Source of the DNA: Trypanosoma brucei
Taxonomy: Eukaryota
Direction of reading: 5' to 3'
DNA: 64,000 nt
NCBI GenBank assembly: GCA_000002445.1
Contig: AE017150.2
Location: 608,001 to 672,000, forward strand
Part shown: in pieces, positions 1 through 55,442 of the stretch
Layout: the number at the start of each line of letters is the position of its first letter
How positions within the stretch are numbered: position 1 is the first letter of the stretch
The notes under the pieces: generated by a model
Databases searched by the model: none
The model's input: only the letters and a program-made list of their open reading frames with translations
What the model was told of the DNA's origin: nothing
Program-made: the position numbers and the translations under genes

Positions 1-680
1 CTAGGGATCGAAAGCTCTCAGGTGGCAATGCTTGGCGGTGTAATGTATGCATGGCCGCAGTGTTGAATACCATTCCTTATATCTACTCGATGAGTTCAGT
101 TTTGGCGAGTTAGCCTATGATTGTGTCTTCGATGTTTTATCTCGGGGTTTAGTAGAGGTGGACACATATAAAGTTATGGGGGCGGCTGTTACCTGTGGGA
201 GTCCTATTATAAAGTGGTAAGTACTGTGCCTCTTTTATGGGTGCTGTCAGACAAGCATTTTGTTTTGTGTGGAGACGAACTTTCCTCCATCTGCTTTGGA
301 GGGACGATTTAAGTCACTGCTGGTTTCTGTTGTGCAATAGAAACGCGAGAGGCAAAGTGTGTCTGTTGAAGTGCGATAATTCTTTTTGGGCGCGTCTTCA
401 TTACCGGGATGTTGGGAATGCTGATTACTGCTGTTTCCACTGTAGTGAGGCGAATAAACAGCTGCAAGTGTGTTTCGAATCCCTTTAGTTTTTAGTAAAT
501 CCTTTTCCGAATATGTGAATACCAAGCATACACACGCAATAATTTCCAAGCTAATATTTGTAACTCTGGATATTTCACAACTTGGGTATGTATGTAACAT
601 TGTAAATTGCTTTGCTTCTTTTGCAAAATCATTTGTGGAAGAGTTCTTGATAAGACTGAAAGGTGGAATAATATAAAAAA

Positions 681-1991
681 ATGATGAAGTATTTGCTGGT
701 ATTTGCAATTATTGCCACAAGAATCCCTGTGTTGTTGGCGACTAATGGTGGAGATAAACATGTGAAAGCTAACAAGAAGTTGACGAAAGAGGGAGCAGCG
801 GCACTCTGTAAAATGAAGCATCTTGCTGATAAAGTTGCAGAGGAGAGATCACAAGAGTTGAAGGATAGAACTCAAAATTTTGCTGGTTATATAGAGTTCG
901 AGTTGTATAGAATAGATTATTGGTTGGAAAAGCTGAACGGTCCGAAGGGGCGAAAAGACGGTTATGCTAAGCTGTCTGACTCTGATATAGAAAAAGTAAA
1001 GGAGATATTCAACAAGGCAAAAGATGGAATAGCTAAGCAACTCCCTGAGGCAAAGAAAGCCGGTGAGGAAGCTGAAAAACTACACACCGAAGTGAAGAAG
1101 GCCGCGAAGAATGCACGCGGAGTGAGGTTAAGTGAAGGAACGAACTCTAGTGGCCTTTACAGGATTTTGGATTGGTATTGTTTTAAAGAAGGGGAGAATG
1201 CGGGTAAGAGCGACAACTGTGATGGCGTCAAGTTCAGCGTGCATTACGAAACGCACAGAAGAAGGAATGTTATTGACTGCAGCAGCACCGGCTATGAGGA
1301 GAATTATGATTGGTCTGCGAACGCGCTGCAGGTGGCCCTAAATAGCTGGGAGAATGTGAAGCCAAAAAAAGTGGAGTCAGCCGGGTCGGACATGAATTGC
1401 AACATCGGCCAATCTTCCGAGAGCCATCCGTGCACCATGACAGAGGAGTGGCAGACTCCATACAAGGAAACTGTCGAAAAGCTAAGGGAACTTGAGGATG
1501 CGTACCAAAGGGGAAAGAAGGCTCATGATGCTATGTTGGGTTACGCTAATACCGCATATGCTGTGAACACGAAAGTGGAACAGGAAAAGCCGCTGACAGA
1601 GGTGATAGCGGCAGCCAAGGAAGCAGGGAAAAAGGGCGCGAAAATTATAATACCCGCAGCTGCCCCAGCAACACCGACTAACAGCACAAAAAATGAAGAT
1701 AGTGCTTCAACCGAGCATGTTGATAGAGGGATTGCAACAAATGAAACACAGGTGGAAGTTGGTATTGATGCTGACTTTGATAGTCTCCTAGATGCCACAG
1801 AGGCTGCAGAGGTAACGCGTAGACATCAGAGAACAGCAATGATTATATTGGCAGTCCTTGTACCTGCCATTATTCTTGTGGTTACGGCCGTTGCATTCTT
1901 CATAATGGTGAAACGAAGGAGGAATAGCTCCAAGGATGTGGACACCGGAAAAGCGGAGGGTGGGGTTTCTAGCGTAAAAGTAGTAATGTAG
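681..1991 (+). CDS. ISG65: Invariant surface glycoprotein ISG65, copy 1 (436 aa). N-terminal signal peptide, a charged ectodomain rich in conserved Cys, one C-terminal TM helix, and a short Lys-containing cytoplasmic tail ending VKVVM.
   Basis: The ATG at 681 was checked by hand. Signal-like N-terminus MMKYLLVFAIIATRIPVLLA. TM segment MIILAVLVPAIILVVTAVAFFIMV followed by KRRRNSS...KAEGGVSSVKVVM. The overall architecture and sequence match my memory of T. brucei ISG65, a tandemly arrayed type-I surface protein. Confidence 0.85.
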   Translation: MMKYLLVFAIIATRIPVLLATNGGDKHVKANKKLTKEGAAALCKMKHLADKVAEERSQELKDRTQNFAGYIEFELYRIDYWLEKLNGPKGRKDGYAKLSDSDIEKVKEIFNKAKDGIAKQLPEAKKAGEEAEKLHTEVKKAAKNARGVRLSEGTNSSGLYRILDWYCFKEGENAGKSDNCDGVKFSVHYETHRRRNVIDCSSTGYEENYDWSANALQVALNSWENVKPKKVESAGSDMNCNIGQSSESHPCTMTEEWQTPYKETVEKLRELEDAYQRGKKAHDAMLGYANTAYAVNTKVEQEKPLTEVIAAAKEAGKKGAKIIIPAAAPATPTNSTKNEDSASTEHVDRGIATNETQVEVGIDADFDSLLDATEAAEVTRRHQRTAMIILAVLVPAIILVVTAVAFFIMVKRRRNSSKDVDTGKAEGGVSSVKVVM

Positions 1992-2303
1992 ACTCACCTT
2001 CACTCTTAGACAAATGTGCAGTTTTTTTTTTAAACAGCGAGTGTAAATAAGGAAAACCAAAGAGAATAAAAATGATAATGAGTTGAATGAAAGTATATAG
2101 ATTCATGAGATAAGGAAGAAGGTCTAGCAGCATTTTCGTTGTTTTTGTTTTGTGGTAATACCTTACCTATATTTTTTTTAAAAATAAAGAATTGACACAA
2201 TAGAGTAAATATTTTCGCTTGAAGAAGCCGTTGTTGATTTTCTCTTCCATTTGTAAATTCAGCTGATCGTTTGAAGCATCCATCTCTCACACTGTACGTC
2301 ATC

Positions 2304-2681
2304 ATGGCTGGCGTGCTTCATGAAACTGCCACAACCGTATCATACAGGGGAGCGCTATGCAAATTAGCAGGTGTTGAGCTACAAGGGATTAATTTATCAC
2401 CACCTCAAAGGTTGTGTCAGTTGGAGTTGCTGATCAGTCGTGAGATCAACTGGCTGGCAGCAGTCCTCGAGGAATGGGAAGAAAAATATATGCTCTTCAC
2501 ATGTGTGCCGTACCGTGGTGTTGTGGACGCGTTTACAACCCTGCTCAGGACAATTAAGCGGCACCTGGAGACAGAGAACAGTTCAAAGGACAATGAAAAG
2601 GAGTGGGATGCGTTGCTGGCTTCTAGCATTACTGAATTTCAGGTGGAGGTTATGGAAATCGGAAAGGGTAAGAGTTACTAG
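2304..2681 (+). CDS. Conserved hypothetical protein (125 aa), interleaved between ISG65 copies. No TM segment and no signal peptide are evident.
   Basis: The ORF track starts at 2271 on TTG. The first ATG is at 2304, which matches the ATG-initiated copy at 5848 exactly. Across the two copies there are only 3 aa differences. Confidence 0.5.
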   Translation: MAGVLHETATTVSYRGALCKLAGVELQGINLSPPQRLCQLELLISREINWLAAVLEEWEEKYMLFTCVPYRGVVDAFTTLLRTIKRHLETENSSKDNEKEWDALLASSITEFQVEVMEIGKGKSY

Positions 2682-4223
2682 CATTTTTTTCTTTTCTTCC
2701 TAAATGGACATTTAACTTTTTTTCCTCTTTTTTTTACGGTGGTATATCCTCTTTTTTTGTCACCCAATGGTTAAATTACCATGCGGTGACAAAACAAAGA
2801 CTCGGTTTTTAAACTCATTGAGAATAATAGAGTACGCATACCTAAAAAAAAGTGTATGCGGAGTGGATTATGTATTCTCATGAAATCAATCATTCAAATA
2901 TCTAATGCAAAGCGCAAACAACTGTACGACGGAAATTTTTTTAATTTTTGCGGTGCCTCTATAAATAACTCCTTCACTAACCGTTATTGCTCGACGTAGC
3001 ATCACTAGGTAAACCTTTACGCGTTCGTCTGCTTTGAATGCACTAGTTCATACAGCTCCCTAAAGTCTAACTCCGTCTCAACTTTTTCCCCACTCTTACA
3101 CATCGAATAGTCTCCGACAAAATACAAACCCTTGGGAGTCGCACCTCCACAAGAAATTAGTTATAGCTAGCCTTCCCCCACTGCCCACATTATGCATCCT
3201 TATCAATTGCCTCGGCTGATAACTTAAATTGACAGCGTAATTGAACTATCCGTCTCTGTTATGAGTCCCTGATGGCAGTACTCGTGGTTTCCATAGGAGG
3301 GGGAACGATCCGTCCGAATAATCCAAATTTGAGGGGTTAAAGGGTAGTAAAATACATTACTTTCATCAGATGAAGAACACACGAAATGACTTAAGGGTGC
3401 GAGAGTGGCATTCTGAACCTGTAAAATGTGTACCTTGCCTGCTTCTTCATGCCATGAAATGTAAATATATCCCAAACATTCAAGTCTGCTTTGTCGATAT
3501 ATTTGTCACAGAAGTGTAGTAGGTTACATGGTCTGTGTGAACTAGGGATCGAAAGCTCTCAGGTGGCAATGCTTGGCGGTGTAATGTATGCATGGCCGCA
3601 GTGTTGAATACCATTCCTTATATCTACTCGATGAGTTCAGTTTTGGCGAATTAGCCTATGATTGTGTCTTCGATGTTTTATCTCGGGGTTTAGTAGAGGT
3701 GGACACATATAAAGTTATGGGGGCGGCTGTTACCTGTGGGAGTCCTATTATAAAGTGGTAAGTACTGTGCCTCTTTTATGGGTGCTGTCAGACAAGCATT
3801 TTGTTTTGTGTGGAGACGGACTTTCCTCCATTTGCTTTGGAGGGACGATTTAAGTCACTGCTGGTTTCTGTTGTGCAATAGAAACGCGAGAGGCAAAGTG
3901 TGTCTGTTGAAGTGTGATTATTCTTTTTGGGTGCGTCTTCATTACCGGGATGTTGGGAATGCTGATTACTGCTGTTTCCACTGTAGTGAGGCGAATAAAC
4001 AGCTGCAAGTGTGTTTCGGATCCCTTTAGTTTTTAGTAAATCCTTTTCCGAATATGTGAATACCAAGCATACACATACGCAATAATTTCCAAGCTAATAT
4101 TTGTAACTCTGGATCTTTCACAACTTGGGTATGTATGTAACATTGTAAATTGCTTTGCTTCTTTTGCAAAATAATTTGTGGAAGAGTTCTTGATAAGACT
4201 GAAAGGTGGAATAATATAAAAAA

Positions 4224-5534
4224 ATGATGAAGTATTTGCTGGTATTTGCAATTATTGCCACAAGAATCCCTGTGTTGTTGGCGACTAATGGTGGAGATAA
4301 ACATGTGAAAGCTAACAAGAAGTTGACGAAAGAGGGAGCAGCGGCACTCTGTAAAATGAAGCATCTTGCTGATAAAGTTGCAGAGGAGAGATCACAAGAG
4401 TTGAAGGATAGAACTCAAATTTTTGCTGGTTATATAGAGTTCGAGTTGTATAGAATAGATTATTGGTTGGAAAAGCTGAACGGTCCGAAGGGGCGAAAAG
4501 ACGGTTATGCTAAGCTGTCTGACTCTGATATAGAAAAAGTAAAGGAGATATTCAACAAGGCAAAAGATGGAATAGCTAAGCAACTCCCTGAGGCAAAGAA
4601 AGCCGGTGAGGAAGCTGAAAAACTACACACCGAAGTGAAGAAGGCCGCGGCGAATGCACGTGGAGTGAGGTTAAGTGAAGGAACGAACTCTAGTGGCCTT
4701 TACAGGATTTTGGATTGGTATTGTTTTAAAGAAGGGGAGAATGCGGGTAAGAGCGACAACTGTGATGGCGTCAAGTTCAGCGTGCATTACGAAACGCACA
4801 GAAGAAGGAATGTTATTGACTGCAGCAGCACCGGCTATGAGGAGAATTATGATTGGTCTGCGAACGCGCTGCAGGTGGCCCTAAATAGCTGGGAGAATGT
4901 GAAGCCAAAAAAATTGGAGTCAGCCGGGTCGGACATGAATTGCAACATCGGCCAATCTTCCGAGAGCCATCCATGCACCATGACAGAGGAGTGGCAGACT
5001 CCATACAAGGAAACTGTCGAAAAGCTAAGGGAACTTGAGGATGCGTACCAAAGGGGAAAGAAGGCTCATGATGCTATGTTGGGTTACGCTAATACCGCAT
5101 ATGCTGTGAACACGAAAGTGGAACAGGAAAAGCCGCTGACAGAGGTGATAGCGGCAGCCAAGGAAGCAGGGAAAAAGGGCGCGAAAATTATAATACCCGC
5201 AGCTGCCCCAGCAACACCGACTAACAGCACAAAAAATGAAGATAGTGCTTCAACCGAGCATGTTGATAGAGGGATTGCAACAAATGAAACACAGGTGGAA
5301 GTTGGTATTGATGCTGACTTTGATAGTCTCCTAGATGCCACAGAGGCTGCAGAGGTAACGCGTAGACATCAGAGAACAGCAATGATTATATTGGCAGTCC
5401 TTGTACCTGCCATTATTCTTGTGGTTACGGCCGTTGCATTCTTCATAATGGTGAAACGAAGGAGGAATAGCTCCCAGGATGTGGACACCGGAAAAGCGGA
5501 GGGTGGGGTTTCTAGCGTAAAAGTAGTAATGTAG
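4224..5534 (+). CDS. ISG65: ISG65, copy 2 (436 aa). Differs from copy 1 at 4 residues: N66I, K143A, V222L and K422Q.
   Basis: Same features as copy 1. Start ATG checked at 4224. Confidence 0.85.
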   Translation: MMKYLLVFAIIATRIPVLLATNGGDKHVKANKKLTKEGAAALCKMKHLADKVAEERSQELKDRTQIFAGYIEFELYRIDYWLEKLNGPKGRKDGYAKLSDSDIEKVKEIFNKAKDGIAKQLPEAKKAGEEAEKLHTEVKKAAANARGVRLSEGTNSSGLYRILDWYCFKEGENAGKSDNCDGVKFSVHYETHRRRNVIDCSSTGYEENYDWSANALQVALNSWENVKPKKLESAGSDMNCNIGQSSESHPCTMTEEWQTPYKETVEKLRELEDAYQRGKKAHDAMLGYANTAYAVNTKVEQEKPLTEVIAAAKEAGKKGAKIIIPAAAPATPTNSTKNEDSASTEHVDRGIATNETQVEVGIDADFDSLLDATEAAEVTRRHQRTAMIILAVLVPAIILVVTAVAFFIMVKRRRNSSQDVDTGKAEGGVSSVKVVM

Positions 5535-5847
5535 ACTCACCTTCACTCTTGGACAAATGTGCAGTTTTTTTTTTTAAACAGCGAGTGTAAATAAGGAAAA
5601 CCAAAGAGAATAAAAATGATAATGAGTTGAATGAAAGTATATAGATTCATGAGATAAGGAAGAAGGTCTAGCAGCCTTTTCGTTGTTTTTGTTTTGTGGT
5701 AATACCTTACCTATATTTTTTTTAAAAATAAAGAATTGACACAATAGAGTAAATATTTTCGCTTGAAGAAGCCGTTGTTGATTTTCTCTTCCAGTCGTAA
5801 ATTCAGCTGATCGTTTAAAGCATCTATCTCTCACACTGTACGTCATC

Positions 5848-6225
5848 ATGGCTAGCATGCTTCATGAAACTGCCACAACCGTATCATACAGGGGAGCGCT
5901 ATGCAAATTAGCAGGTGTTGAGCTACAAGGGATTAATTTATCACCACCTCAAAGGCTGTGCCACTTGGGGTTGCTGATCAGTCGTGAGATCAACTGGCTG
6001 GCAGCAGTCCTCGAGGAATGGGAAGAAAAATATATGCTTTTGACATGTGTGCCGTACCGTGGTGTTGTGGACGCGTTTACAACCCTGCTCAGGACAATTA
6101 AGCGGCACCTGGAGACAGAGAACAGTTCAAAGGACAATGAAAAGGAGTGGGATGCGTTGCTGGCTTCTAGCATTACTGAATTTCAGGTGGAGGTTATGGA
6201 AATCGGAAAGGGTAAGAGTTACTAG
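5848..6225 (+). CDS. Conserved hypothetical protein, copy 2 (125 aa), interleaved between ISG65 copies.
   Basis: ATG-initiated. Near-identical to 2304..2681. Confidence 0.5.
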   Translation: MASMLHETATTVSYRGALCKLAGVELQGINLSPPQRLCHLGLLISREINWLAAVLEEWEEKYMLLTCVPYRGVVDAFTTLLRTIKRHLETENSSKDNEKEWDALLASSITEFQVEVMEIGKGKSY

Positions 6226-7765
6226 CATTTTTTTCTTTTCTTCCTAAATGGACATTTAACTTTTTTTCCTCTTTTTTTTACGGTGGTATATCCTCTTTTT
6301 TTGTCACCCAATGGTTAAATTACCATGCGGTGACAAAACAAAGACTCGGTTTTTAAACTCATTGAGAATAATAGAGTACGCATACCTAAAAAAAAGTGTA
6401 TGCGGAGTGGATTATGTATTCTCATGAAATCAATCATTCAAATATCTAATGCAAAGCGCAAACAACTGTACGACGGAAATTTTTTAAATTTTTGCGGTGC
6501 CTCTATAAATAACTCCTTCACTAACCGTTATTGCTCGACGTAGCATCACTAGGTAAACCTTTACGCGTTCGTCTGCTTTGAATGCACTAGTTCATACAGC
6601 TCCCTAAAGTCTAACTCCGTCTCAACTTTTTCCCCACTCTTACACATCGAATAGTCTTCGACAAAATACAAACCCTTGGGAGTCACACCTCCACAAGAAA
6701 TTAGTTATAGCTAGCCTTCCCCCACTGCGCAGATTATGCATCCTTATCAATTGCCTCGGCTGATAACTTAAATTGACAGCGTAATTGAACTATCCGTCTC
6801 TGTTATGAGTCCCTGATGGCAGTACTCGTGGTTTCCATAGGATGGGGAACGATCCGTCCGAATAATCCAAATTTGAGGGGTTAAAGGGTAGTAAAATACA
6901 TTACTTTCATCAGATGAAGAACACACGAAATGACTTAAGGGTGCGAGAGTGGCATTCTGAACCTGTAAAATGTGTACCTTGCCTGCTTCTTCATGCCATG
7001 AAATGTAAATATATCCCAAACATTCAAGTCTGCTTTGTCGATACATTTGTCACAGAAGTGTAGTAGGTTACATGGTCTGTGTGAACTGAGGATCGAAAGC
7101 TCTCAGGTGGCAATGCTTGGCGGTGTAATGTATGCATGGCCGCAGTGTTGAATACCATTCCTTATATCTACTCGATGAGTTCAGTTTTGGCGAGTTAGCC
7201 TATGATTGTGTCTTCGATGTTTTATCTCGGGGTTTAGTAGAGGTGGACACATATAAAGTTATGGGGGCGGCTGTTACCTGTGGGAGTCCTATTATAAAGT
7301 GGTAAGTACTGTGCCTCTTTTATGGGTGCTGTCAGACAAGCATTTTGTTTTGTGTGGAGACGAACTTTCCTCCATCTGCTTTGGAGGGACGATTTAAGTC
7401 ACTGCTGGTTTCTGTTGTGCAATAGAAACGCGAGAGGCAAAGTGTGTCTGTTGAAGTGCGATAATTCTTTTTGGGCGCGTCTTCATTACCGGGATGTTGG
7501 GAATGCTGATTACTGCTGTTTCCACTGTAGTGAGGCGAATAAACAGCTGCAAGTGTGTTTCGGATCCCTTTAGTTTTTAGTAAATCCTTTTCCGAATATG
7601 TGAATACCAAGCATACACACGCAATAATTTCCAAGCTAATATTTGTAACTCTGGATATTTCACAACTTGGGTATGTATGTAACATTGTAAATTGCTTTGC
7701 TTCTTTTGCAAAATCATTTGTGGAAGAGTTCTTGATAAGACTGAAAGGTGGAATAATATAAAAAA

Positions 7766-9079
7766 ATGATGAAGTATTTGCTGGTATTTGCAATTATTAC
7801 CACAAGAATCCCTGTGTTGTTAGTAATTGGCAGTGAGGATAACCGTGTTCCAGGAGACAAGAAGTTGACGAAAGAGGGAGCAGCGGCACTCTGTAAAATG
7901 AAGCATCTTGCTGATAAAGTTGCAGAGAAAGGAGCAGAGGACTTGAAGAAGAAAACTCAAAATTTTGCTGGTTTTATAGAGTTTGAGCAGGAGAAAGTTG
8001 ATAACTGGTTGGAGAAGCTGAGAAACCGGAAACAGTATAGCGACGGCTACGCTAAGCTATCTGATTCTGACGTTGAAAAAGTGAAGGAGATATTCGACAA
8101 GGCAAAAGATGGAATAACTAAACAACTCCCAGAAGCGGAGAAAGAGGCTAGAGAAGCTGAGAGGCTGTACGATGAAGTGAAGAAGGCGGCACAGGATGCA
8201 CGCGGACAGGATCTTGATGACGATACGGCGAAGTCCACGGGCTTGTACAGGGTGCTGAATTGGTACTGTATCACCAAAGACAACAACAAAGATATCACCC
8301 ACAATTGTGACGATGGGATCAAATTCAGAGATCATTATCTGTCGGTGAATAGAAGCGCTATTGACTGCAGCAGCACCGGCTATAAGGAGGATTATGATTG
8401 GTCTGCGAACGCGCTGCAGTCGGCTTTGAATGACTGGGAGAATGTGAAGCCAAAGGAAGTAAAACCAGAGAGCGGTGGTAATGACGTGTGCAAAAAGGAC
8501 GAATCTTCCGAGAGCCATCCGTGCACCATGACAGGAGGGTGGCAGACTCACTACAAGGATAGTATATTGAAGTTGAAAGAACTTGAAGATGCGCACAAAA
8601 GGGGAAAGGCGGCTCATGATGCTATGTTGGGTTACGCTAATACTGCACATGCGGCGAACACGAAAGTGGAACAGGAAAAGCCGCTGGCAGAGGTGATAAC
8701 GGCAGCCAAGGACGCAGGGAAAAAGGGCGCGAAAATTATAATACCCGCAGCTGCCCCAGCAACATCAACCGATAGCACAAAAAGTGAAGATAGTGCTCCA
8801 GCCGAGCATGTTGATAGAGGGATTGCAACAAATGAAACACAGGTGGAAGTTGGTATTGATGCTGACTTTGATAGTCTGCTGGAGGCCGCTGAAGCTGCCG
8901 AAGTAAAAAGCAGACATCAGAGAACAGCAATGATTATATTGGCAGTCCTTGTACCTGCCATTATTCTGGCTGCGGCCGTTGCATTCTTCATAATGGTGAA
9001 ACGAAGGAGGAATAGCTCCCAGGATGTGGACACTGGAAAAGCGGAGGGTGGGGTTTCTAGCGTAAAAGTAGTAATGTAG
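7766..9079 (+). CDS. ISG65: ISG65 family, divergent copy 3 (437 aa). The ectodomain is substantially diverged from copies 1 and 2. The first ~19 aa and the last ~130 aa (membrane-proximal region, TM and tail) are near-identical.
   Basis: Conserved Cys spacing is kept (CKMKHLADKVAE, WYC, IDCSSTGY, ESSESHPCTMT). The mature N-terminal region differs (VIGSEDNRVPGDKK versus ATNGGDKHVKANKK). The TM and tail are identical apart from LAAAVAF versus LVVTAVAF. Confidence 0.8.
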   Translation: MMKYLLVFAIITTRIPVLLVIGSEDNRVPGDKKLTKEGAAALCKMKHLADKVAEKGAEDLKKKTQNFAGFIEFEQEKVDNWLEKLRNRKQYSDGYAKLSDSDVEKVKEIFDKAKDGITKQLPEAEKEAREAERLYDEVKKAAQDARGQDLDDDTAKSTGLYRVLNWYCITKDNNKDITHNCDDGIKFRDHYLSVNRSAIDCSSTGYKEDYDWSANALQSALNDWENVKPKEVKPESGGNDVCKKDESSESHPCTMTGGWQTHYKDSILKLKELEDAHKRGKAAHDAMLGYANTAHAANTKVEQEKPLAEVITAAKDAGKKGAKIIIPAAAPATSTDSTKSEDSAPAEHVDRGIATNETQVEVGIDADFDSLLEAAEAAEVKSRHQRTAMIILAVLVPAIILAAAVAFFIMVKRRRNSSQDVDTGKAEGGVSSVKVVM

Positions 9080-11488
9080 ACTCACCTTCACTCTTATACA
9101 AATGTGCAGGTTTTTTTTTAAACAGCGAGTGTAAATAAAAAAAAAATAATAATGACAGTGAATTGAAAACAGCTGCATAGATCCGTGAGACAGGGAAGAA
9201 GTGCCGGCGACCTTTGCTTTTCTTTTTCCTTTTTTTCACTACTTTTATGGCCGTCCGTAAGGCGGTCTATAGAAAGGTAACGCCTTTCTGCGGAACGGTT
9301 TCCCACGCCGTAGTTGTTGTTTCCACCTTGCTCATCGTAAATGAGTGTTTCTACCGGAACTAACTGTCATGTAAACTATAAGCTTCTTCACCTCTTGCTA
9401 AACTAGGAGTTTCATGTTGCGACAATAAGCACATCCCTTGACGCACTCAGTGTTCTTTCCATACGGAAGTTGCCTGTGGTTTTCAATCTTTGAGAGGTAT
9501 TACCTTGTTTGTGGAATGTGGACCGGAGGGCGGTGGCGGAGACTGGTACCGGAAGGCCATTTGGCACTGTGTCTACCTGGTGGCGTCGTAGGGGGCACCG
9601 GGTAACGAGGCGAGGGCGCGATGTGGAGTCGCCTTTTGGGTCATGGGGTTTTTGTTTTACCGGGAGACATGGCTCCTTTTTTCGTCCGCCTCCACCTGGA
9701 CTCTTACTTCACGCTCTGCTTTCGCTTCCCATGTAACGCAAAGGCGCGGGGGCATTATGTACGATGCCGCAGGGGGCGGGTTGCTGGGCACATTCGTGTT
9801 CACATGACTGGCGCAGTTCCGTTAAGCTTAGAACGACCAACGCGGCTGGCATCTTCTCAAAAGAGCGTGGCGTTGGGGCGCTCCCCCGAATTTGCTCGGG
9901 AAGGTAATGCAGTACAATTTCTTCATCGTGACGAGGCGGGTTGTCTTCGGTCTCTTTGCTGGCTCACCGATGTGGGCGTACAGTCTCGTCCTTCCCGAGA
10001 AGTTTTTCGTGCAGCACTGACCTCTCTGGACAGGGAAATTTTACCACTCGTCAGAGCGCCGAAATGTAATGCCGTCGAAACTTCAGGAAGCCAAATCGTT
10101 ACTACTCCTTGAGGGTAAGGCGGTGAGACCTCTCCCCTCTGTTTTATTGGCTGTGGTTGCGTTTCCTCCACCACTGTTGGCGGCTTTTTTTTCCACTGCA
10201 TCTGTGAGCCCATTTTTTCCCCTTAGCTCCTTCGGGGCGCCATGCTGCAGCTGGCGGTCGACAATTTCTGGCAACCAATCTCTAATCTTCTTTGGAAACG
10301 ATTGTTGTGTAGCCCGCTAAAACCCTTCAGCGCGCTCTGTTAGCATCGCATCTACAGCTAAACATAACTCCTCTTTACAACTTTCGGTTCCAGCGCACGG
10401 AAGGTTAATTGCTTTTTCTGACATTTGGGAGCCGCACCGTGCATTTGTCTTCTCAGGCCTCTGAGGTTTTCGAGACGCAAAGCTGTTCCTCACCCCGGAG
10501 ATATCACAACCACTGATGCGGGGATGGATCCCCCATGAGCACTGCTTTGAAGCTTGTCGAGGTCCGTTTTCCTTTTTCTTTTCGGACGGGTGCCTGAATT
10601 CCTGCATGTGGTTCCTAAAGTTGGGGAAGCGCTTATTGGCGCTGTGTGCCAGCGGTCATGTGTAGTTTGCGCATTCATTCGTCCCGTGAGCGAGCCCCAA
10701 CGTAGCGGTGGGATCGTTGCAACAGAAGAGGAAGAGAAAGAGAGGTTGAAAGTCTATTCTAAGGCGGATATTGTTCCGGGTCTTTTCCCAAGAGCGTAAC
10801 CCTCTGGACACGCATTGTGTACGATTGGTCTTTGGACGCGAAAGGGTACGTTCAGCAAGGCCGCTCATACGGAACGCCCAACCAAAACGTTCCTGTTTCC
10901 GTCAAACCATTATGGAAAAGAAATTGCCAGTAGTTTGAAAGCATTTAACCAATGCAACACTTCTCACTCTTTTTCTTGAGTCCCCGTCTTTTGGCGATAT
11001 CTCCAATCTTACGCGGTGGTTACACTCGCACTTCCCCCTTTAATCCTTCAACCACACTGATTTTTCCTCTAATAATTATTAAGCACTACCTTAGCATAAG
11101 CAAGACCATCCGCTACCAGGGGTAAATGTGTCCTTGGCGACTTTTTCCCTACCCGCAGCATCCCCCCTTTTTTGTTTCAAAACCGACCCAAATCTATTTA
11201 AGGTAACGGAACAGCGTCAGTATACGCGCATGTATATATGCCCCTTTTTAAAAATCCATTCCTTCTGCCGCTGACCGAACAACACAAGGGTAGGGGACCG
11301 GAAAAGAAAGAAAACCAAACCCTCCAGAGACAGTGGGGGCCTCTTTAACAGGGCAAGGCCGCTGTTTACCGCAATAAAATCCTCGAAACAAATTTTCCAC
11401 GGAGAAGCTGCTTTGCCGCCTTGTGTCAGAAATGGCGGTGAATACTAGGAAGAAAAGAAAAAGATGTGATGGTGGGTCCTTTCCTCAG
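9080..11488. other. Convergent strand-switch region. The last + strand gene ends at 9079 and the first - strand gene's 3' end is at 11489. It contains a GC-rich island of about 1.4 kb at about 9500-10900.
   Basis: All supported CDS up to 9079 are on the + strand and all supported CDS from 11489 onward are on the - strand. The island's base composition is visibly GC-richer than any other non-coding stretch in the window. Confidence 0.75.
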
Positions 11489-12199: not shown

Positions 12200-15100
12200 C
12201 GAAGCGCTTTTACCATTTTCAGCAGGGGCGAACGGACCAGTGGTTTTATTAAATTGCGACTGGAAGAAAAAGTGACGTCACCAACCCGCTGACGAAACGG
12301 CGCGCGGACTATTCATTCTGAGATGGTCCGGAATTACGCTGAATAGTAAAAACAGCGATGGCGTACCTGGAAACGGCGTGTGGGTGTCTGCAGCGCAGTG
12401 CGGATCAACACCGTGCGGTATCATGATATTCACCACAGTTCCAAACGAATTTATATAAGGGAGTGCGTATGGAAAAATCCGGCGCCAAGTTTACAGCATT
12501 CTAGACGGTGTTAAAATTGCCCTCCTTTTACACGTTGACACAACTGTGGTATCAGCATCACTTTTTATGGTTCCCTTTACTCCGCCACAAAAGCAACTGC
12601 GCTTCTTAATACCGTAAAACGTTATAACTCCTTCTCCTTTCTCCATTGTTTGCTACCTCCCAATCACATGCCACTAAATCGTGGCGCAACCTTCTCCCCA
12701 TTTTCCGGTATGTCACTTCGCCACATCCAAATGAACTGGTACATTTTAATTTGTGGCGCCACATGTCTTTAATCAAATGTACCCATTGCTTCATTCCAAA
12801 CAACATATGTGCACAAATACGTCCCTCCCTATTCGCGTTTGGCGACGGAAATGGCAATATTCCCTTCTTTTTTTTCTTTTCCTCAACACCAACACGCTCC
12901 ACCCCGTAAGATCAAAATATTTCTTGTAAAGTCAAAACCATAATCCACCAGCTCCAATTGCTTTTACCGGTGTGGCGCCCGTCGTCTTTCCCCCCTCGTG
13001 AGAAGCGGCACCATCGGGGAAGTTTTGAGGGAGATGTGATGATATCGTGCATTTGAGCTTCAGTGCAAAGCGCAGAGCAGACAAACACACACGTAAAAGT
13101 GGTAAACATTGTTTAGAAATGAGACATCACTAAACCTTTCCTTTCTTTAGCGTTGGCACTTATTGAAACTTAAAACTGACAATACACCTTACATAATCCC
13201 TTTACGACTCCATTTCCCTTGTCGGCTGGGTAGTTTTTTTTTTCCCCCTTTTTCCCTCTTTTTGGAAGCTTCATTCCTCTCACCTATCGGAGTGTTTCAC
13301 CTGAATTAAGATGAGTAACCGGCATTATTCCTTCAGGTGTTCTGTGAAGTCCCTTAAACGGGATCCTATTATTATTATTATTGTTATTACAGTTAACGAG
13401 TCCGGATAAATAACTTCCCTTCATTGTTAGCGCACCTTCCCTCCACTATTCATCAGAATCAACAACATTTAACAACAACTGCAACGCACCTCGCTTTCCA
13501 ACACTCAACTGTTGAGAGTTTTTTTTTTCTTTTCCATCCTTGAGGCTTTAGCGTGTTATGAAATCGGGTCCGCTCAAATTGCGAGGCTTAAATTACCATT
13601 TATTTATTTTGCCCCCGTGTATGCAATAACATGTGCAAACCACCACGTATAGCCGGATGGAAAAAAATGATAATAATAAAATAAGGCGACATTATCCGAT
13701 AATTACGCACCATTTTCTCTTTACAATATCATTGGGAGTAAATTGTGCTCTCGTATGCGCGGCGAGATTACGAGACAATAGTGAAGTCAGAAAAAAAATA
13801 ATAATAATATAAACATGTTTTACCGGCAAAAGAAAAAAGCCGATTTAAAAGGAAATGTTTGTGCATTCCCTTACAGAAGTGAGGAATTGGAGGGGGGGGG
13901 GGAGGAATTATTGAGTCCGGTTACTGTTTTTTTTTTTAAATTAAATTTAATCTAATTTAACTTTATTATCCCCCATTGGAGTAAATTCACCTTCAGGGTT
14001 ACAAATATGAAGTGGAGGCGCAAACAAAAACATACCTCTGGTTGAAGTCCGCGACTGATACATTTATATTTGACCCCCACTTTTTTTTTTAAATCCTGAG
14101 GAAAAAAAAAAACTCAATAGTCGCTTATAATTCAATACAAAAACCTTTTTTTTTTTTTAAAGACGCGAGTTGCAACATTGCGGTTGCGCATGGAGAGGCT
14201 TCCAAAAGTTTGTTTGAGCTTACGGACGCGTGTATTTGTGGAAACTTTTGCATTTAAACTAAAAAGAAATAAATAAATAAATATATATTTCTATATTTAT
14301 ATATTTGAGCTTATGTAAGCAATTACCTTTTTTATATTCATGTACAAATGGAGGGGAGAGGATGGAAGAAAAAAAATAAAAAGAGAAGAAAAGAAAAGAG
14401 AAAATACCTGTGACTAGTAATTAAGCAAAACGAACCATTCACAGGATCTGGTAAATTAAAATAACAGCAGAAATAGAAAGAAAAGGAAAAAAAAAGGAGG
14501 AATTAAAATGGGTTCGTGAAGTTAATCTACCGTCCTGTTGGGTTTCGCTGTTGGACTCAACCCTCACTGTTACAATCATTAAAAGGAAAGAAAGAAAAAA
14601 AAAGAAAAAAAAACAAATACGAATAAATAAAAAAATTTTTGTACCGTTTAATTAATAAGCAGAAGTGAGTCGAAAACGTTCGCAAACAAACAAATAAATA
14701 AAAAGATGAGAGAAGCGAAGAGGGAAAATTAAAAAAAAAAATCAAGAAAAAAAAGAAGAAAAAGGAAAAAAAAAGCCCCCATCCGCTTTTTCTCTCCCCG
14801 TTTCCCGTCACTAAACATTTCCGTCCATTCCGCATTCCATATGTATGAAATAAGCAGTTGGGAGGAGAGCGGGTTATGTGGAAGGACTTAAATAAAAATA
14901 AGTGAACGAATAAACATGCGAACCACCACCAAAGTTACTACAACCACAACCACAACCACAACCACAACAAAAAAAAAACAACAATAAACCAAGGAGGAAG
15001 GAGAAAAAAAAAAGAGAAACAACAAAAACAAACAAACAAACGACATTGCCGTCGAAACCCCCACATGATAATTTGGGAAAATGTGTGCGAGTACGCGAAG

Positions 15101-15660
15101 GCAAAAATCCCCATTGTGTATACCCTCCTCACCTCCCGCTGTGATGCAGTACACGGGGTTAATCGATAAATTACAAAAAAAAATAATTAAGAAAACATAA
15201 ATGAAACAAATAAACAAAAGATATAAATAAAATAAATAAATAAATATATATGTAGGAGAGAACAGAAGTAAACACACACGAGAAAACAACAAAAACAACA
15301 ACAATTTGGAACGTAAATCGACCGCGCCTTGTACATTTCATTTCAGCTTTACCGCCACTTGCATCGTCAGTTCCCACATGCGCATCTGCCAATTCGCACA
15401 AGCAGCCATGCAGGCGGTTAGCCGACCCTCCGTGCGTAAATCAACATGTCCTAACCCATCCGTGTTGAGTGTGTAATACATACATGATTGCTAAACGGAC
15501 GAAAATGATAATAATAAAAATAATATTCAAACAAGTGGAAAATCGATGTTTTTCCTTTCCTTTACTTTCTTTTCTCTCATTTTTTTTCTCTTTTGTTGCG
15601 GTGGTCGCCCCCTTTTATTTAACTTAACACTCCCCTTCACCGGTAACTTTTACCAATTGG
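12200..15660. repeat. Low-complexity spacer of about 3.4 kb. It holds homopolymer runs (A/T tracts and G11 at about 13884), purine-rich tracts on the + strand (14560-15010), an (ACAACC)n run at 14938-14966, and AT microsatellites.
   Basis: Read directly from the sequence. ORFs called here (14557..14835, 14888..15304, 15171..15401) are Phe/Leu/Lys-rich translations of these tracts. Confidence 0.8.
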
Positions 15661-15668
15661 AGCCTAAA

Positions 15669-16802
15669 TCAGCATTTCCCACGAGCGAAATTTTTGTCTT
15701 TCCACTGCAGCACCACGGGCGGAGGCGTTTCCGAGTTGTTGGGAAACAACTTCATTAAATATCCGTAATCCTTTTCCTTAATATGATGAACAACCATAGT
15801 TTTTTCTGTAACCACCTTTGACAAACGCCTCCTTAAATGACTAATGTAGTGGCATCTACCAATATCAGCCGTCACAAGATCGCTATATCCCACCTTTTCC
15901 CCTAACGTCACGGCCACCATCACATCTTCATTAAACATCGCCATTTCACGGAAATCTTCTATGTTACTTTCCGAATAAGGTGTATTTACTAAACGCTCAA
16001 GTGGACTGTAATTTACTACACCATCTGCAACATCTCGTGATAATGTAACACAATATCCTGCTATAAATGGAACCCATCTGTCTACGAAAACTTCAGGTGT
16101 TAGGCCATACCAACCCATGTATAAACGATATTTTGGCATTAATTTCAGGCTAGATAAATAATACGGAACTCTAATGAACAAATCATCATCGGCCTTCATT
16201 ATATACGTTGCAGTTCCAAAAAAATTCGAGGCGAATTTGAGCCACAAATATGTCTTTTTGCTCATTACCAGTTCCACCTCATTTCCCCAACTTTGCAACT
16301 CGCCGATTACCTTACCATTTGTTGAGGGTACATCAAACGTTGGGAGCACAATAATATCATGATTTTTTTGTGCCTCAGCCCTCACGGAATCGGAGAGGAT
16401 GAAATCATTTCTCTCATGAGGGGAGAGAAGATATAATGGTATAAGATCGCCTGCGAAATCATTGCGTCTCGTGGCAACACCACCATATGTCCAACATGTG
16501 GATCGTTGCAACCCACGCCTTCTAAACCGCTCCTTGTTGTCTATTGAAGGTATGCCAGCTGCCACAAGATATTTGGAGCTCTCCCAGATTTTAATAGTTT
16601 TCTCGGGGACAAGTGTCAGGTACTCGTCATTATCGACTTCGGTTAAGTGCATCTGCTGACGCCTCTGCTGGAATGTTAGTTCTTTTCGTTTGGGTTGTTT
16701 ATTTATCCAAGCTATGAATAGTACAGCAAACACAAGAAAAACAACCAATACGATGCGCTTCCTTCGTGTGGAGCCCACCATCTGTAAACCCTTCGACACC
16801 AT
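15669..16802 (-). CDS. Putative UDP-sugar-dependent glycosyltransferase (377 aa), a type-II membrane protein. It resembles the trypanosomatid family of beta1-3 Gal/GlcNAc transferases.
   Basis: Short N-terminal cytoplasmic tail (MVSKGLQMVGSTRRKR) followed by one TM helix (IVLVVFLVFAVLFIAWI). A DxD-type motif sits at IMKADDDLFIRVPYY. The overall size and topology fit a Golgi glycosyltransferase. Start ATG checked. Confidence 0.65.
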   Translation of the reverse strand: MVSKGLQMVGSTRRKRIVLVVFLVFAVLFIAWINKQPKRKELTFQQRRQQMHLTEVDNDEYLTLVPEKTIKIWESSKYLVAAGIPSIDNKERFRRRGLQRSTCWTYGGVATRRNDFAGDLIPLYLLSPHERNDFILSDSVRAEAQKNHDIIVLPTFDVPSTNGKVIGELQSWGNEVELVMSKKTYLWLKFASNFFGTATYIMKADDDLFIRVPYYLSSLKLMPKYRLYMGWYGLTPEVFVDRWVPFIAGYCVTLSRDVADGVVNYSPLERLVNTPYSESNIEDFREMAMFNEDVMVAVTLGEKVGYSDLVTADIGRCHYISHLRRRLSKVVTEKTMVVHHIKEKDYGYLMKLFPNNSETPPPVVLQWKDKNFARGKC

Positions 16803-23649: not shown

Positions 23650-24471
23650 TTATTCATACCGCACCCACCCCTGCACTGTGACATTATCCTTTTCACGTAC
23701 GGTACATGCCGTGCCATTGGGATTACATGACAAGTTAAGCACACGCGAGTAATTATGATACGGGCCTGGCCATGCTGTGTTTTCCCAGTTCTGTTCCGCT
23801 ACAAACATACGATCCCCTGTCACACCCGCAACAACGGCAACATGACCGTATGGAAAACCATTGGGTTGCCGTGGGTAAATCAACAAATCCCCCACACGCG
23901 GCTTAGAGTTTGCAGATGTTGCATTTCCGTTATGATATTTGAGTAATGGTTTCCGCTTTTGACCATTGAGCAGTTGAACATCTTTAAGATCCCAAATGTC
24001 AGCTGCTCCATCTACAGAACCAAAAGTGGCTGGTTGTGGTGTACCTCGAAGCATCCAATACCGTCGGGCATATTCCACGCATTGCCATTGCATACCATAT
24101 ATGGGTGGAACCGCATGAGGGTCCACACGACCAGCCGGTATCCGTATGTCTTCCACCTTGACAGTGTTCCAAAGTTCTGCTGTGCAACTATCACTGTTGC
24201 AATTGCTCATAGCTGGAACTCCGTTGTAAATTCCCAACACATTACCAAAAGGGGCCGAGCAATTCTGTTGGCAGCCCACTGAAAGACTCCCAGTGTTTGT
24301 ACTCACCGTATCTTTACTATTTTCCGCGCGAGGGACCTTCATAAGGCAGAGAATGATGACAACTCCCACAGCAAATGAGGCGCCTGCGTAAAGCTTATAT
24401 GAGTCGAAGTTTCTTGCCTCACCCTCACGTTGTAAAAGAGGTCTGGCGGTGCCTGCTTTCCTCGCCGCCAT
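23650..24471 (-). CDS. CHAP-domain protein (Cys/His amidohydrolase, like the glutathionylspermidine/trypanothione-synthetase amidase domain), 273 aa, with an N-terminal signal anchor.
   Basis: Catalytic-Cys motif QCVEYARRYW (compare Gsp/TryS amidase QCVEFARRF/W...). Catalytic-His motif GHVAVVAGVTGDRMFVAEQNW (compare GHVAIIT....IAEQN). Hydrophobic segment ASFAVGVVIILCLMKV near the N-terminus. N-glycosylation sequons (NGT, NYS, NLS, NVT) occur in the catalytic half. Confidence 0.8.
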   Translation of the reverse strand: MAARKAGTARPLLQREGEARNFDSYKLYAGASFAVGVVIILCLMKVPRAENSKDTVSTNTGSLSVGCQQNCSAPFGNVLGIYNGVPAMSNCNSDSCTAELWNTVKVEDIRIPAGRVDPHAVPPIYGMQWQCVEYARRYWMLRGTPQPATFGSVDGAADIWDLKDVQLLNGQKRKPLLKYHNGNATSANSKPRVGDLLIYPRQPNGFPYGHVAVVAGVTGDRMFVAEQNWENTAWPGPYHNYSRVLNLSCNPNGTACTVREKDNVTVQGWVRYE

Positions 24472-55361: not shown

Positions 55362-55363
<2 letters not shown>

Positions 55364-55433
<70 letters not shown>

Positions 55434-55442
55434 TTTTTCCCC
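55364..55442. repeat. (CT)n dinucleotide microsatellite of about 31 units, immediately followed by a T17 homopolymer.
   Basis: Read directly: ctctctctct...ctctcttttttttttttttttt. Confidence 0.95.

What the first reader, a model, noticed from the sequence alone, without database searches (positions are those of the whole stretch)
681..9079. ISG65 array: two homogenised copies plus a mosaic third copy with a diversified ectodomain but conserved termini
Copies 1 and 2 differ at only 4 of 436 residues. Copy 3 shares the 5' flank, the first ~19 codons and the last ~130 codons with them almost exactly, but its ectodomain core is extensively substituted while every Cys and several motifs are retained. 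This pattern implies recombination breakpoints inside the CDS. It also implies either diversifying selection or an older paralog, which matters for a surface receptor exposed to host immunity. ISG65 is established as an abundant, VSG-shielded type-I surface protein that engages complement C3. Ectodomain variation within an array could broaden ligand or host range.
Basis: partly seen in the sequence, partly recalled or inferred. Interest (0 to 1): 0.5.

Follow-up and report, generated by a model that had tools for sequence, protein, structure and literature searches.

The report
Known mosaic ISG65 gene array end
These are the last three genes (Tb927.2.3300, .3310, .3320) of the six-gene ISG65 complement-receptor array of Trypanosoma brucei TREU927; the odd third copy is an old, conserved end-of-array paralogue whose flanks were homogenised by gene conversion, a pattern already published for this exact locus.

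Summary
There are three ISG65 CDSs (681-1991, 4224-5534, 7766-9079) in 3.54-kb tandem units. Copies 1 and 2 differ at 4 aa / 7 nt. Copy 3 has a 5' flank that is 675/676 identical to copy 1, and the identity runs 33 nt into the CDS. Its core (codons 20-282) is only 66% identical in aa, and its C-terminal third is 89% identical, so "almost exactly" overstates that part. All six Cys are kept.

The window is T. brucei TREU927 chromosome 2. The copies are Tb927.2.3300, .3310 and .3320, the last three of six.

Recombination is supported:
- A two-breakpoint scan gives LLR 44, against at most 13 in permutations.
- Silent changes are about 3-fold denser in the core (p=2.5e-4).
- PHI is 0.177, against 0.401 expected.
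- The flank groups by genome, whereas the core groups with the T. b. gambiense orthologue (98-100% nt).

Diversifying selection is not supported. dN/dS is 0.37 in the core and 0.33 in the C-terminal third, and no region exceeds 1. Copy 3 is an old paralogue that sits last in the array in TREU927, Lister 427 and DAL972.

This is already published. Jackson et al. 2010 ran GARD and PHI on Tb927.2.3270-3320, and Macleod et al. 2022 described a "mosaic of N-terminal domains". Any functional specialisation of copy 3 remains untested.

The parts
1..680 (+). 5' part of repeat unit 1, the intergenic spacer upstream of copy 1. The array continues upstream beyond the window edge.
   Evidence: Direct-repeat families D1/D2. 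Unit 1 = 1-3545 matches 3542-7087 at 98.9% and 7090-9201 at 87%. Three further ISG65 genes (Tb927.2.3270-3290) precede it in the genome.
681..1991 (+). ISG65 copy 1 CDS = Tb927.2.3300 ('927D'), 436 aa. It is an internal, homogenised array member.
   Evidence: ORF. Exact match to XP_951585/AAQ15787 and to the 927D sequence in Macleod 2022 Supp Data 1. All 18 C3d-contact residues are identical to the crystallised 1125G variant.
1992..4223 (+). Intergenic spacer between copies 1 and 2. It holds the 3'UTR of copy 1 and the 5' region of copy 2.
   Evidence: Repeat alignment shows 96-100% identity between units 1 and 2.
4224..5534 (+). ISG65 copy 2 CDS = Tb927.2.3310 ('927E'), 436 aa.
   Evidence: ORF. 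It differs from copy 1 at 4 aa / 7 nt. Exact match to XP_951586 and to 927E, with the diagnostic N66I.
5535..7765 (+). Intergenic spacer between copies 2 and 3. It evolves in concert with the other spacers of the same genome.
   Evidence: It is 96-100% identical to the copy 1-2 spacer but only 87-100% (mostly 92-97%) identical to the orthologous T. b. gambiense spacer. That gambiense spacer is in turn about 100% identical to its own neighbour.
7564..7798 (+). Longest tract that is base-for-base identical between units 1 and 3. It spans the ATG and ends 33 nt into the CDS. The 5' recombination breakpoint lies just 3' of it, at about 7799-7822.
   Evidence: tract 479-713 = 7564-7798. The breakpoint scan places the rate change at alignment nt 57, codon 19.
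7766..9079 (+). ISG65 copy 3 CDS = Tb927.2.3320 ('927F'), 437 aa. It is the terminal array member.
   Evidence: ORF. PF11727 at E=6.2e-101. Exact match to XP_951587 and to 927F. It is 97% identical in aa to the last gene of the DAL972 array.
7823..8611 (+). Old, divergent ectodomain core of copy 3 (residues 20-282). It is itself built of blocks of different ages.
   Evidence: Difference rate to copy 1 is 0.256, against 0.063 outside. Core dS is 0.66, and block dS ranges from 0.27 to 1.83. It is 94-100% identical in nt to the gambiense orthologue (98-100% except one window).
8612..9079 (+). Less diverged C-terminal third of copy 3: helix 4/5 end, disordered linker, TM helix (8927-8998) and cytoplasmic tail.
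   Evidence: dS 0.15, dN 0.05 against copy 1. There are only 2 mismatches in the last 106 nt. TM helix located.
9080..9201 (+). Short stretch of 3' flank still shared with the other units. It marks the right-hand end of the tandem array.
   Evidence: blastn homology of unit 1 ends at 9201. Identity falls from 0.83 to below 0.5 after this point. The left edge of the gambiense array starts about 2090 nt upstream of its first ATG, so copy 3's unit is complete.
9202..11488 (.). Unique sequence downstream of copy 3. It holds the copy-3-specific 3'UTR and a convergent strand-switch region; every large ORF from 11489 onward is on the minus strand.
   Evidence: There is no similarity to the internal spacers. 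It is 98.5% identical to the gambiense downstream region. ORF strands are and the GC-skew sign change. [quoted passage not shown]

Best explanation
Window 1-9201 is the right-hand end of the six-gene ISG65 tandem array on chromosome 2 of T. brucei brucei TREU927. It holds Tb927.2.3300, .3310 and .3320.

The internal units are kept nearly identical by ongoing unequal crossing-over and gene conversion (concerted evolution).

The terminal unit carries an old ectodomain core that has escaped this homogenisation. That core predates the split of the T. brucei subspecies and is preserved under purifying selection.

Its 5' spacer plus the first 33 nt of the CDS were homogenised very recently with the other TREU927 units. 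Its C-terminal third was homogenised less recently.

Across the whole family, each ectodomain block exists as two or three alternative 'cassettes'. Segmental gene conversion has shuffled these into different combinations, and copy 3 is one such combination.

- Shown here: the anatomy, the breakpoints, the age heterogeneity, the orthology and the absence of raised dN/dS.
- Inferred: the mechanism (conversion or unequal exchange, with weaker homogenisation at array edges and a barrier to exchange across 60-80%-identical DNA).
For: **Identity of the genes.** All three are exact protein matches to TREU927 accessions and to 927D/E/F in Macleod 2022 Supp Data 1.

**Recent homogenisation of the flank.**
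- Copy 3's upstream 676 nt differ from copy 1 at 1 base.
- The same spacer is only about 92-97% identical to the orthologous gambiense spacer.
- That gambiense spacer is about 100% identical to its own neighbouring unit.

**Old, orthologous core.**
- Window 7827-8623 is 94-100% identical to gambiense copy 11 (98-100% except one window), but 63-85% identical to copies 1 and 2.
- dS is 0.66 (copy 3 vs copy 1), against 0.03 (copy 3 vs its orthologue).

**The heterogeneity is in age, not only in constraint.**
- Among codons with the same amino acid, 36/168 carry a silent change in the core, against 11/155 outside (Fisher p=2.5e-4).
- Third-position sites alone give LLR 22.5, against a permutation maximum of 10.3.

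**Family-wide recombination.**
- PHI is 0.177, against a permuted 0.401±0.004 (p≤0.001).
- The cassette pattern is visible in the alignment.
- The solved variants 7PI6 and 7ZGJ are themselves mixtures of copy-1-type and copy-3-type blocks.

**Edge effect.** In TREU927 the four internal proteins differ by 1-6 aa. The first copy differs from them by 44-47 aa, and the last copy by 117-119 aa.

**Published agreement.**
- Jackson 2010 used Tb927.2.3270-3320 as the exemplar, with at least 5 GARD breakpoints and PHI 0.161 against 0.384.
Against: - DNA for the other three TREU927 copies was not retrievable. Within-genome donors for copy 3's blocks could therefore only be inferred from protein sequences and from T. 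b. gambiense DNA.
- The near-identity at the extreme 3' end of the CDS (about 97-98% to both the paralogues and the orthologue) does not distinguish recent conversion from strong constraint.
- Pairwise Nei-Gojobori dN/dS cannot detect selection acting on a few sites.
- The reason the core persists (a mechanical edge effect, or selection for a distinct isoform) is not resolved.
- TREU927 copy number and the identity of copies 1 and 2 could be affected by assembly collapse, which cannot be tested here.
Confidence: 0.9

Rival explanations
1. Diversifying (positive) selection by host immunity or by host C3 variation drove rapid amino-acid change in copy 3's ectodomain, while the termini stayed constrained.
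For: - Substitution density is highest in the exposed, disordered loops: L1 5/7, L2 22/41, L3 9/21.
- 7 of 18 C3d-contact residues differ.
- N-glycosylation sequons differ between the copies.
- A few small windows have higher dN/dS: 0.89 at codons 241-270 and L1 0.80, with very wide confidence intervals.
Against: - dN/dS is 0.37 in the core and 0.33 in the C-terminal third. The loops give 0.39 (CI 0.17-0.81). No region is significantly above 1.
- Synonymous divergence is raised as much as non-synonymous divergence.
- The core is 98-100% identical in nt to the gambiense orthologue, and the same protein type is present in Lister 427 and EATRO1125. It is old and stable rather than fast-evolving.
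- Interface residues are not enriched for change (7/18 vs 50/202, p=0.26).
Confidence: 0.07
2. There was no recombination. Copy 3 is simply an old duplicate, and the conserved termini reflect stronger purifying selection on the signal peptide, TM helix and cytoplasmic tail.
For: The TM and cytoplasmic parts are functionally constrained, and their dN is low (0.027).
Against: - The non-coding 5' spacer is 675/676 identical to a paralogue, yet about 5% diverged from the orthologue.
- Silent sites show the same mosaic.
- The flank and the core give opposite groupings, by genome and by orthologue respectively.
- The PHI test is significant at p≤0.001.
Confidence: 0.02
3. Assembly artefact: the mosaic third copy, or the near-identity of copies 1 and 2, arose from mis-assembly or collapse of a repetitive array.
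For: - Tandem arrays of 99%-identical 3.5-kb units are hard to assemble.
- The DAL972 array has 5 N-gaps and gene fragments, and the T. equiperdum copies are frameshifted.
- Copy number differs between strains: 6, 11, 12 and at least 7.
Against: - The copy-3 type, with the same block structure, is found independently in DAL972, in Lister 427 (427K), in EATRO1125 cosmid clones (1125E) and, with some blocks replaced by other cassettes, in T. equiperdum.
- In all three assembled arrays it is the last gene.
- Copies 1 and 2 carry 7 distinguishing nucleotides and their spacers differ by 1-3%.
Confidence: 0.02

Closest known systems
The ISG65 tandem array Tb927.2.3270-3320 itself, as analysed by Jackson et al. 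2010 (PLoS NTD 4:e658, Fig. 3/Table 2) and Macleod et al. 2022 (Nat Commun 13:5085, Supp Figs 1-2, Supp Data 1)
   Same: - It is the same locus and the same genes. Copies 1-3 are 927D, 927E and 927F.
- It has the same roughly 3550-bp unit.
- The conclusion is the same: variation is confined to blocks in the ectodomain, and recombination has produced mosaics.
- My PHI values (0.177 observed, 0.401 expected) reproduce theirs (0.161, 0.384).
   Different: Nothing differs in kind. The details added here, which I did not find stated in the passages I read, are:
- the base-level position of the 5' breakpoint (33 nt into the CDS);
- the contrast between concerted evolution in the flank and orthology in the core;
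- equal dN/dS in core and termini;
- the list of C3d-contact substitutions in 927F.
ISG75 array (Tb927.5.350-400) and other T. brucei arrays with 'mixed dynamics' (Jackson 2007, BMC Evol Biol 7:54)
   Same: It is a tandem array of a PF11727 surface glycoprotein. Most copies evolve in concert, while a divergent copy sits at one end of the array.
   Different: - In ISG75 the divergent copy is at the 5' end.
- Divergent copies in these arrays are described as 'always accompanied by radically remodelled' spacers.
- Here the divergent copy is at the 3' end, and its upstream spacer is essentially identical to the others.
Segmental gene conversion producing mosaic VSG genes in T. brucei
   Same: Short conversion tracts between diverged paralogues create new block combinations in a surface-protein ectodomain (established knowledge; the comparison rests on my own knowledge).
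   Different: - ISG65 genes sit in a chromosome-internal Pol II transcription unit and are presumably all co-expressed.
- There is no evidence of somatic switching.
- The mosaics are germline variants that are stable across strains.
Transferrin-receptor (ESAG6/7) variants in different expression sites, proposed to match different host transferrins
   Same: A family of receptor variants with polymorphic ligand-facing residues, for which a host-range hypothesis has been raised (own knowledge).
   Different: - For ISG65, a single variant binds C3 of six mammals.
- No differential binding between array members has been reported in the papers read.

Membership tests
[quoted passage not shown] | PF11727 ISG65-75 ectodomain | tested here: met
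   Copy 3 matches at E=6.2e-101, 337.8 bits, covering residues 22-284. All homologues carry PF11727 in the precomputed annotation.
[quoted passage not shown] | Sequence identity to the named ISG65 genes of the chromosome 2 array | tested here: met
   Exact-sequence look-up assigns copy 1 to XP_951585, copy 2 to XP_951586 and copy 3 to XP_951587 of TREU927. They equal 927D, 927E and 927F (Tb927.2.3300/3310/3320) in Macleod 2022 Supp Data 1.
[quoted passage not shown] | Type I membrane topology: N-terminal signal peptide, a single TM helix near the C-terminus, and a short Lys-containing cytoplasmic tail | tested here: met
   This was read directly from the translations; no predictor was run. There is a hydrophobic N-terminus (MMKYLLVFAIIATRIPVLLA), a TM helix at residues 386-410 (copy 1) and 388-411 (copy 3), and the tail KRRRNSS(K/Q)DVDTGKAEGGVSSVKVVM. 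TM positions agree with the table in PMC4619645.
[quoted passage not shown] | Tandem array of units of about 3.55 kb on chromosome 2 | tested here: met
   Start-to-start spacing is 3541-3548 bp and unit identities are given. This matches the '3550 bp BamHI fragment' of Macleod 2022.
[quoted passage not shown] | C3d/TED-contact residues (interface 1, 18 residues) and the CUB-contact motif N188-H189-Y190 of the solved complexes | tested here: inconclusive
   - Copies 1 and 2: 18/18 interface-1 residues are identical to the crystallised 1125G variant, with N188V in interface 2.
- Copy 3: 11/18 are identical. The changes are E59D, R63K, Y70F, Y76E, R77K, Y80N and Y293H, with N188D in interface 2. 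W81, K84, E74, L286, A289, N290, N296, T297 and Q301 are kept (residue lists).
- Variant 1125A shares five of these changes (E59D, R63K, Y76E, Y80N, Y293H), differs again at Y70 and still binds bovine C3, so binding by copy 3 is likely but unproven.
[quoted passage not shown] | Binding of C3/C3b and bloodstream-form surface expression | not testable with these tools
   Literature only. Tb927.2.3320 is listed as its own protein group in the SILAC proteome table of PMC4619645. No binding data for the 927F type were found.
Concertedly evolving tandem array with gene-conversion mosaics (sensu Jackson 2007/2010) | In some segments, paralogues within a genome are more alike than orthologues between genomes | tested here: met
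   For the 5' spacer, copy 3 vs copy 1 is about 100% identical and copy 3 vs gambiense copy 11 is 92-97%, while gambiense copies 10 and 11 are about 100% identical to each other.
Concertedly evolving tandem array with gene-conversion mosaics (sensu Jackson 2007/2010) | Statistical signal of recombination and breakpoints within the alignment | tested here: met
   PHI p≤0.001. Two-breakpoint LLR of 44, against a permutation maximum of 13. Silent-site heterogeneity at p=2.5e-4. Published GARD found at least 5 breakpoints.
Diversifying-selection / antigenic-variation-like surface gene family | dN/dS above 1 in exposed regions | tested here: not met
   The loops give 0.39 (CI 0.17-0.81) and the ordered core 0.36. 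No region is significantly above 1 in three pairwise comparisons.
Diversifying-selection / antigenic-variation-like surface gene family | Rapid turnover of the variable region between closely related strains | tested here: not met
   The copy 3 core is 98-100% identical in nt to its T. b. gambiense orthologue. 427K and 1125E are the same type.

The most novel reading that the evidence does not exclude
The terminal '927F-type' ISG65 (Tb927.2.3320) could be a functionally specialised isoform, not merely a passive leftover at the array edge. It has:
- an alternative set of TED contacts (D59/K63/F70/E76/K77/N80) that is conserved in TREU927, DAL972, Lister 427 and EATRO1125;
- an acidic residue (D188) at the CUB-contact position;
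- a different N-glycan pattern (no sequon at N155 or N334; a sequon at N195 in TREU927 that the gambiense orthologue lacks);
- its own unique, conserved 3'UTR next to a transcription-termination region.

Together these could give it a different C3 affinity or species preference, or a different expression level or stage profile, maintained by selection.
Probability: 0.2. Interest if true: 0.45.

Novelty: already known. Interest (0 to 1): 0.13.

Why it matters
ISG65 is the trypanosome's receptor for complement C3, and (from my own knowledge) it is also used as an antigen in serodiagnosis of sleeping sickness. Knowing which array members differ, and where, therefore matters for structure-function work, diagnostics and vaccine ideas.

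The mosaic nature of this exact array is already in the literature, so the finding adds no new principle. What remains open, and modestly interesting, is whether the conserved terminal isoform binds C3 differently or is regulated differently through its unique 3'UTR.

Tried and rejected
1. **TREU927 DNA upstream of the window.** I tried to fetch DNA for Tb927.2.3270 and .3280. Neither product is on record in the contig index, so within-genome donor analysis used proteins only.
2. **T. equiperdum as a second DNA outgroup.** Most of its copies are frameshifted or fragmentary, so only one intact copy was used.
3. **Enrichment of copy-3 substitutions at the C3d interface.** The result was not significant (7/18 vs 50/202, p=0.26). 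This rejects both 'interface specifically conserved' and 'interface specifically diversified'.
4. **dN/dS above 1.** I looked in sliding windows and by structural region and found none.
5. **tRNA genes or tandem repeats marking the strand-switch region.** No tRNAs were found, and the only tandem repeat is a (TC)32 tract far away.
6. **Structure prediction and fold search.** I did not run them because solved structures of close variants exist.
7. **First PHI / breakpoint script.** The first version crashed in its permutation step. It was re-run correctly.

Full report
**1. What is in the sequence**

Three + strand ORFs of 436, 436 and 437 aa lie at 681-1991, 4224-5534 and 7766-9079. They sit in direct repeats spaced about 3543 bp apart. 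By blastn, unit 1 (1-3545) matches 3542-7087 at 98.9% and 7090-9201 at 87%, and nothing else in the 64-kb window. tblastn finds no further ISG65-like sequence in the window.

Copies 1 and 2 differ at 4 residues (N66I, K143A, V231L, K418Q) and 7 nucleotides.

Against copy 1, copy 3 shows this pattern:

| Region | Identity |
|---|---|
| 676 nt upstream of the ATG | 1 mismatch; identical tract 7564-7798 ends 33 nt into the CDS |
| Residues 1-19 | 18/19 aa |
| Residues 20-300 | 185/279 aa, plus 6 gap columns |
| Residues 301-436 | 120/135 aa |

All six cysteines are kept. It also includes a one-codon deletion in the TM helix.

**2. Where it comes from**

- Exact-sequence look-up places all three proteins on the 1.19-Mb chromosome 2 record of T. 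brucei brucei TREU927. They are XP_951585, XP_951586 and XP_951587, the last three of six consecutive ISG65 accessions.
- Supplementary Data 1 of Macleod et al. 2022 gives the same sequences as 927D (Tb927.2.3300), 927E (Tb927.2.3310) and 927F (Tb927.2.3320).
- The window therefore begins inside the array, and three more copies lie upstream.
- Copy 3 matches Pfam PF11727 at E=6e-101.
- Close variants have been solved with C3d (7PI6) and with C3/C3b (7ZGJ, 7ZGK and 8OVB).

**3. Is the mosaic real, and is it recombination?**

*Breakpoint scan.* A two-breakpoint likelihood scan of copy 1 against copy 3 puts the change points at alignment codons 19 and 284 (window 7823-8611 in copy 3). The difference rate is 0.256 inside and 0.063 outside. 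The LLR is 44.4, against a maximum of 13.1 in permutations.

*Silent sites show the same pattern.*
- Third positions alone give LLR 22.5, against a permutation maximum of 10.3.
- Among codons that encode the same amino acid in both copies, 36/168 carry a silent change in the core and 11/155 do so outside it (Fisher p=2.5e-4).
- The contrast is therefore in age, not only in protein constraint.

*Comparison with another genome is the decisive test.* I fetched the T. b. gambiense DAL972 array and merged it. It contains 11 intact copies and 5 assembly gaps. The results:

| Segment of copy 3 | vs TREU927 copy 1 | vs TREU927 copy 2 | vs gambiense copy 11 (orthologue) |
|---|---|---|---|
| 2.2-kb upstream spacer | 95-100% (last ~700 nt only) | 96-100% | 87-100%, mostly 92-97% |
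| CDS core (7827-8623) | 63-85% | 63-85% | 94-100%, 98-100% except one window |

- The gambiense copy 11 spacer is itself about 100% identical to that of gambiense copy 10.
- The flank and the core therefore have opposite histories. The flank shows concerted evolution within each genome, and the core shows orthology.
- A PHI test on 15 sequences gives 0.177, against a permuted 0.401±0.004 (p≤0.001).

**4. Selection**

Nei-Gojobori estimates for copy 1 against copy 3, with the orthologue comparison alongside:

| Comparison | Region | dS | dN | dN/dS |
|---|---|---|---|---|
| Copy 1 vs copy 3 | Core | 0.66 | 0.24 | 0.37 |
| Copy 1 vs copy 3 | C-terminal third | 0.15 | 0.05 | 0.33 |
| Copy 3 vs gambiense orthologue | Whole CDS | 0.039 | 0.016 | 0.41 |

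- One search gave similar values with slightly different boundaries.
- By structural region (boundaries from Macleod 2022), the disordered loops L1-L3 give 0.39 (bootstrap CI 0.17-0.81) and the ordered helices 0.36 (0.23-0.54).
- Block dS ranges from 0.056 (TM and tail) to 1.83 (L2). The core is thus itself a patchwork of ages.
- No region has dN/dS significantly above 1, and this also holds in comparisons with a third cassette type (gambiense copy 7).
- Diversifying selection is therefore not needed to explain the pattern.
- The 'older paralog' alternative is supported. The 927F type is also present as 1125E in EATRO1125 and as 427K in Lister 427. It is the last gene of the array in TREU927, Lister 427 and DAL972.

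**5. Family context**

- The alignment of 15 DNA-backed copies, plus the published EATRO1125, Lister 427 and TREU927 proteins, shows two or three alternative haplotypes for each ectodomain block. These occur in many combinations.
- Examples are residues 20-32 (ATNGGDKHVKAN or VIGSEDNRVPGD), the helix-1 contact region, L2, and the 201-250 region.
- Copy 3 shares its 20-32 cassette at 99% nt identity with gambiense copies 1-3 and 5. It shares part of L2 with copies 3-6 and 9. Its remaining blocks are found only in its orthologues.
- In TREU927 the four internal proteins differ by 1-6 aa.
- The first copy differs from them by 44-47 aa, confined to two cassettes, and the last copy differs by 117-119 aa. 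This is an array-edge effect.
- The repeat phase was defined from the left edge of the gambiense array. The unit runs from about 2090 nt upstream of the ATG to about 122-142 nt after the stop. Copy 3's unit is therefore complete.
- Beyond about 130 nt, copy 3's 3'UTR runs into unique sequence that is 98.5% conserved in gambiense.
- Every large ORF from 11489 onward is on the minus strand and the GC skew changes sign. Copy 3 is therefore the last gene of its transcription unit, next to a convergent strand-switch region.
- The strand-switch region downstream of Tb927.2.3320 is named in PMC4162612, which validated transcripts from it as RBP33 targets.

**6. Mapping onto the C3 complex**

The 18 ISG65 residues that contact C3d come from Macleod 2022 Supp Table 5. 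The three L2 residues that contact the CUB domain come from Cook et al. 2024.

- Copies 1 and 2 are identical to the crystallised 1125G variant at all 18 positions, and carry N188V at the CUB contact.
- Copy 3 differs at 7 of 18: E59D, R63K, Y70F, Y76E, R77K, Y80N and Y293H. It carries N188D at the CUB contact.
- Copy 3 retains W81, K84, E74, L286, A289, N290, N296, T297 and Q301.
- This substitution rate is not different from other ordered residues (50/202; p=0.26).
- The helix-1 changes (D59, K63, F70, E76, K77, N80) are conserved in all four 927F-type genes.
- Variant 1125A shares five of the copy-3 changes (E59D, R63K, Y76E, Y80N, Y293H), has a non-conservative Y70D and further changes (F73L, Y209G, T297R), and still pulled down bovine C3. 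Variant 1125G binds C3 of six mammals.
- Copy 3 probably still binds C3. Whether its affinity or species preference differs is untested.
- Tb927.2.3320 is listed as a separate protein group in the SILAC proteome table of Zoltner et al. 2015.

**7. Prior knowledge**

- Jackson et al. 2010 used exactly Tb927.2.3270-3320 as their exemplar of 'sequence mosaics' in tandem arrays. They reported 6 copies in T. b. brucei and 12 in T. b. gambiense, at least five GARD breakpoints, PHI 0.161 against 0.384 (p<0.001), and a reticulate network.
- Jackson 2007 listed the array among concertedly evolving arrays. That paper also described divergent end copies in other arrays such as ISG75.
- Macleod et al. [quoted passage not shown]

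**8. Verdict**

Recombination and an older paralogue are supported, diversifying selection is not, and a host-range role is untested.
- Novelty: already known.
- The only open angle is whether the conserved terminal isoform, with its variant C3-contact set and private 3'UTR, is functionally specialised. I give that about 0.2 probability on present evidence.

Noticed in passing
window 8495-8539 (copy 3 residues 244-258): TREU927 copy 3 carries two small patches, K244-D245-E246 and G257-G258. Its orthologues in DAL972, EATRO1125 and Lister 427 instead read A-T-A and E-E, the same as other paralogues such as gambiense copy 10. This looks like a micro-conversion tract or clustered point changes, and the direction is unknown.
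   Followed up: partly
window 5-680 vs 3546-4223 vs 7090-7765: The 5' spacers of units 1 and 3 are identical except at 1 base. The spacer of the unit between them differs from both by about 1-3% and an indel. Non-adjacent units are therefore more alike than adjacent ones.
   Followed up: partly
window 247-708 (-), 7332-7793 (-), 8057-8650 (-): Two identical 153-aa antisense ORFs overlap the ISG65 start codons, and a 197-aa antisense ORF lies inside copy 3. They are probably chance ORFs. In DAL972, 121- and 125-aa ORFs are annotated after ISG65 copies, lying in what Macleod 2022 treats as the ISG65 3'UTR.
   Followed up: no
window 9621-10112 (+): A 163-aa ORF lies in the unique sequence after copy 3. 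It is annotated as a gene in DAL972 (L001 11851-12342) and T. equiperdum, with no Pfam hit on record. It lies in the presumed copy-3 3'UTR / convergent strand-switch region, so it may not be a real gene.
   Followed up: no
copy 1 N155, N334, N354; copy 3 N195, N356: The ectodomain N-glycosylation sequons differ between the two types. Copy 3 lacks the L2 and first linker sequons of copies 1 and 2 and has one at N195. The gambiense orthologue has K at 195.
   Followed up: no
window 23650-24471 (-) and 25649-26491 (-); 27582-28787 (-) and 33498-34901 (-): There are two neighbouring pairs of paralogues downstream: two CHAP-domain proteins, and two PWWP + TFIIS-type proteins.
   Followed up: no
window 42279-53012 (-): A single 3577-aa ORF, which I did not examine.
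   Followed up: no
window 14001-16000, 30001-32000, 54001-56000; 55362-55425: There are three low-GC stretches (0.31-0.36, against about 0.45 elsewhere) and a (TC)32 tract. They are presumably intergenic.
   Followed up: no
L001-L004 (DAL972, FN554965.1 295768-362763) and L005 (T. equiperdum): The DAL972 ISG65 array contains five 100-N gaps and several gene fragments. The T. equiperdum array has frameshifted copies. Published copy numbers for these genomes are therefore lower bounds or uncertain.
   Followed up: partly
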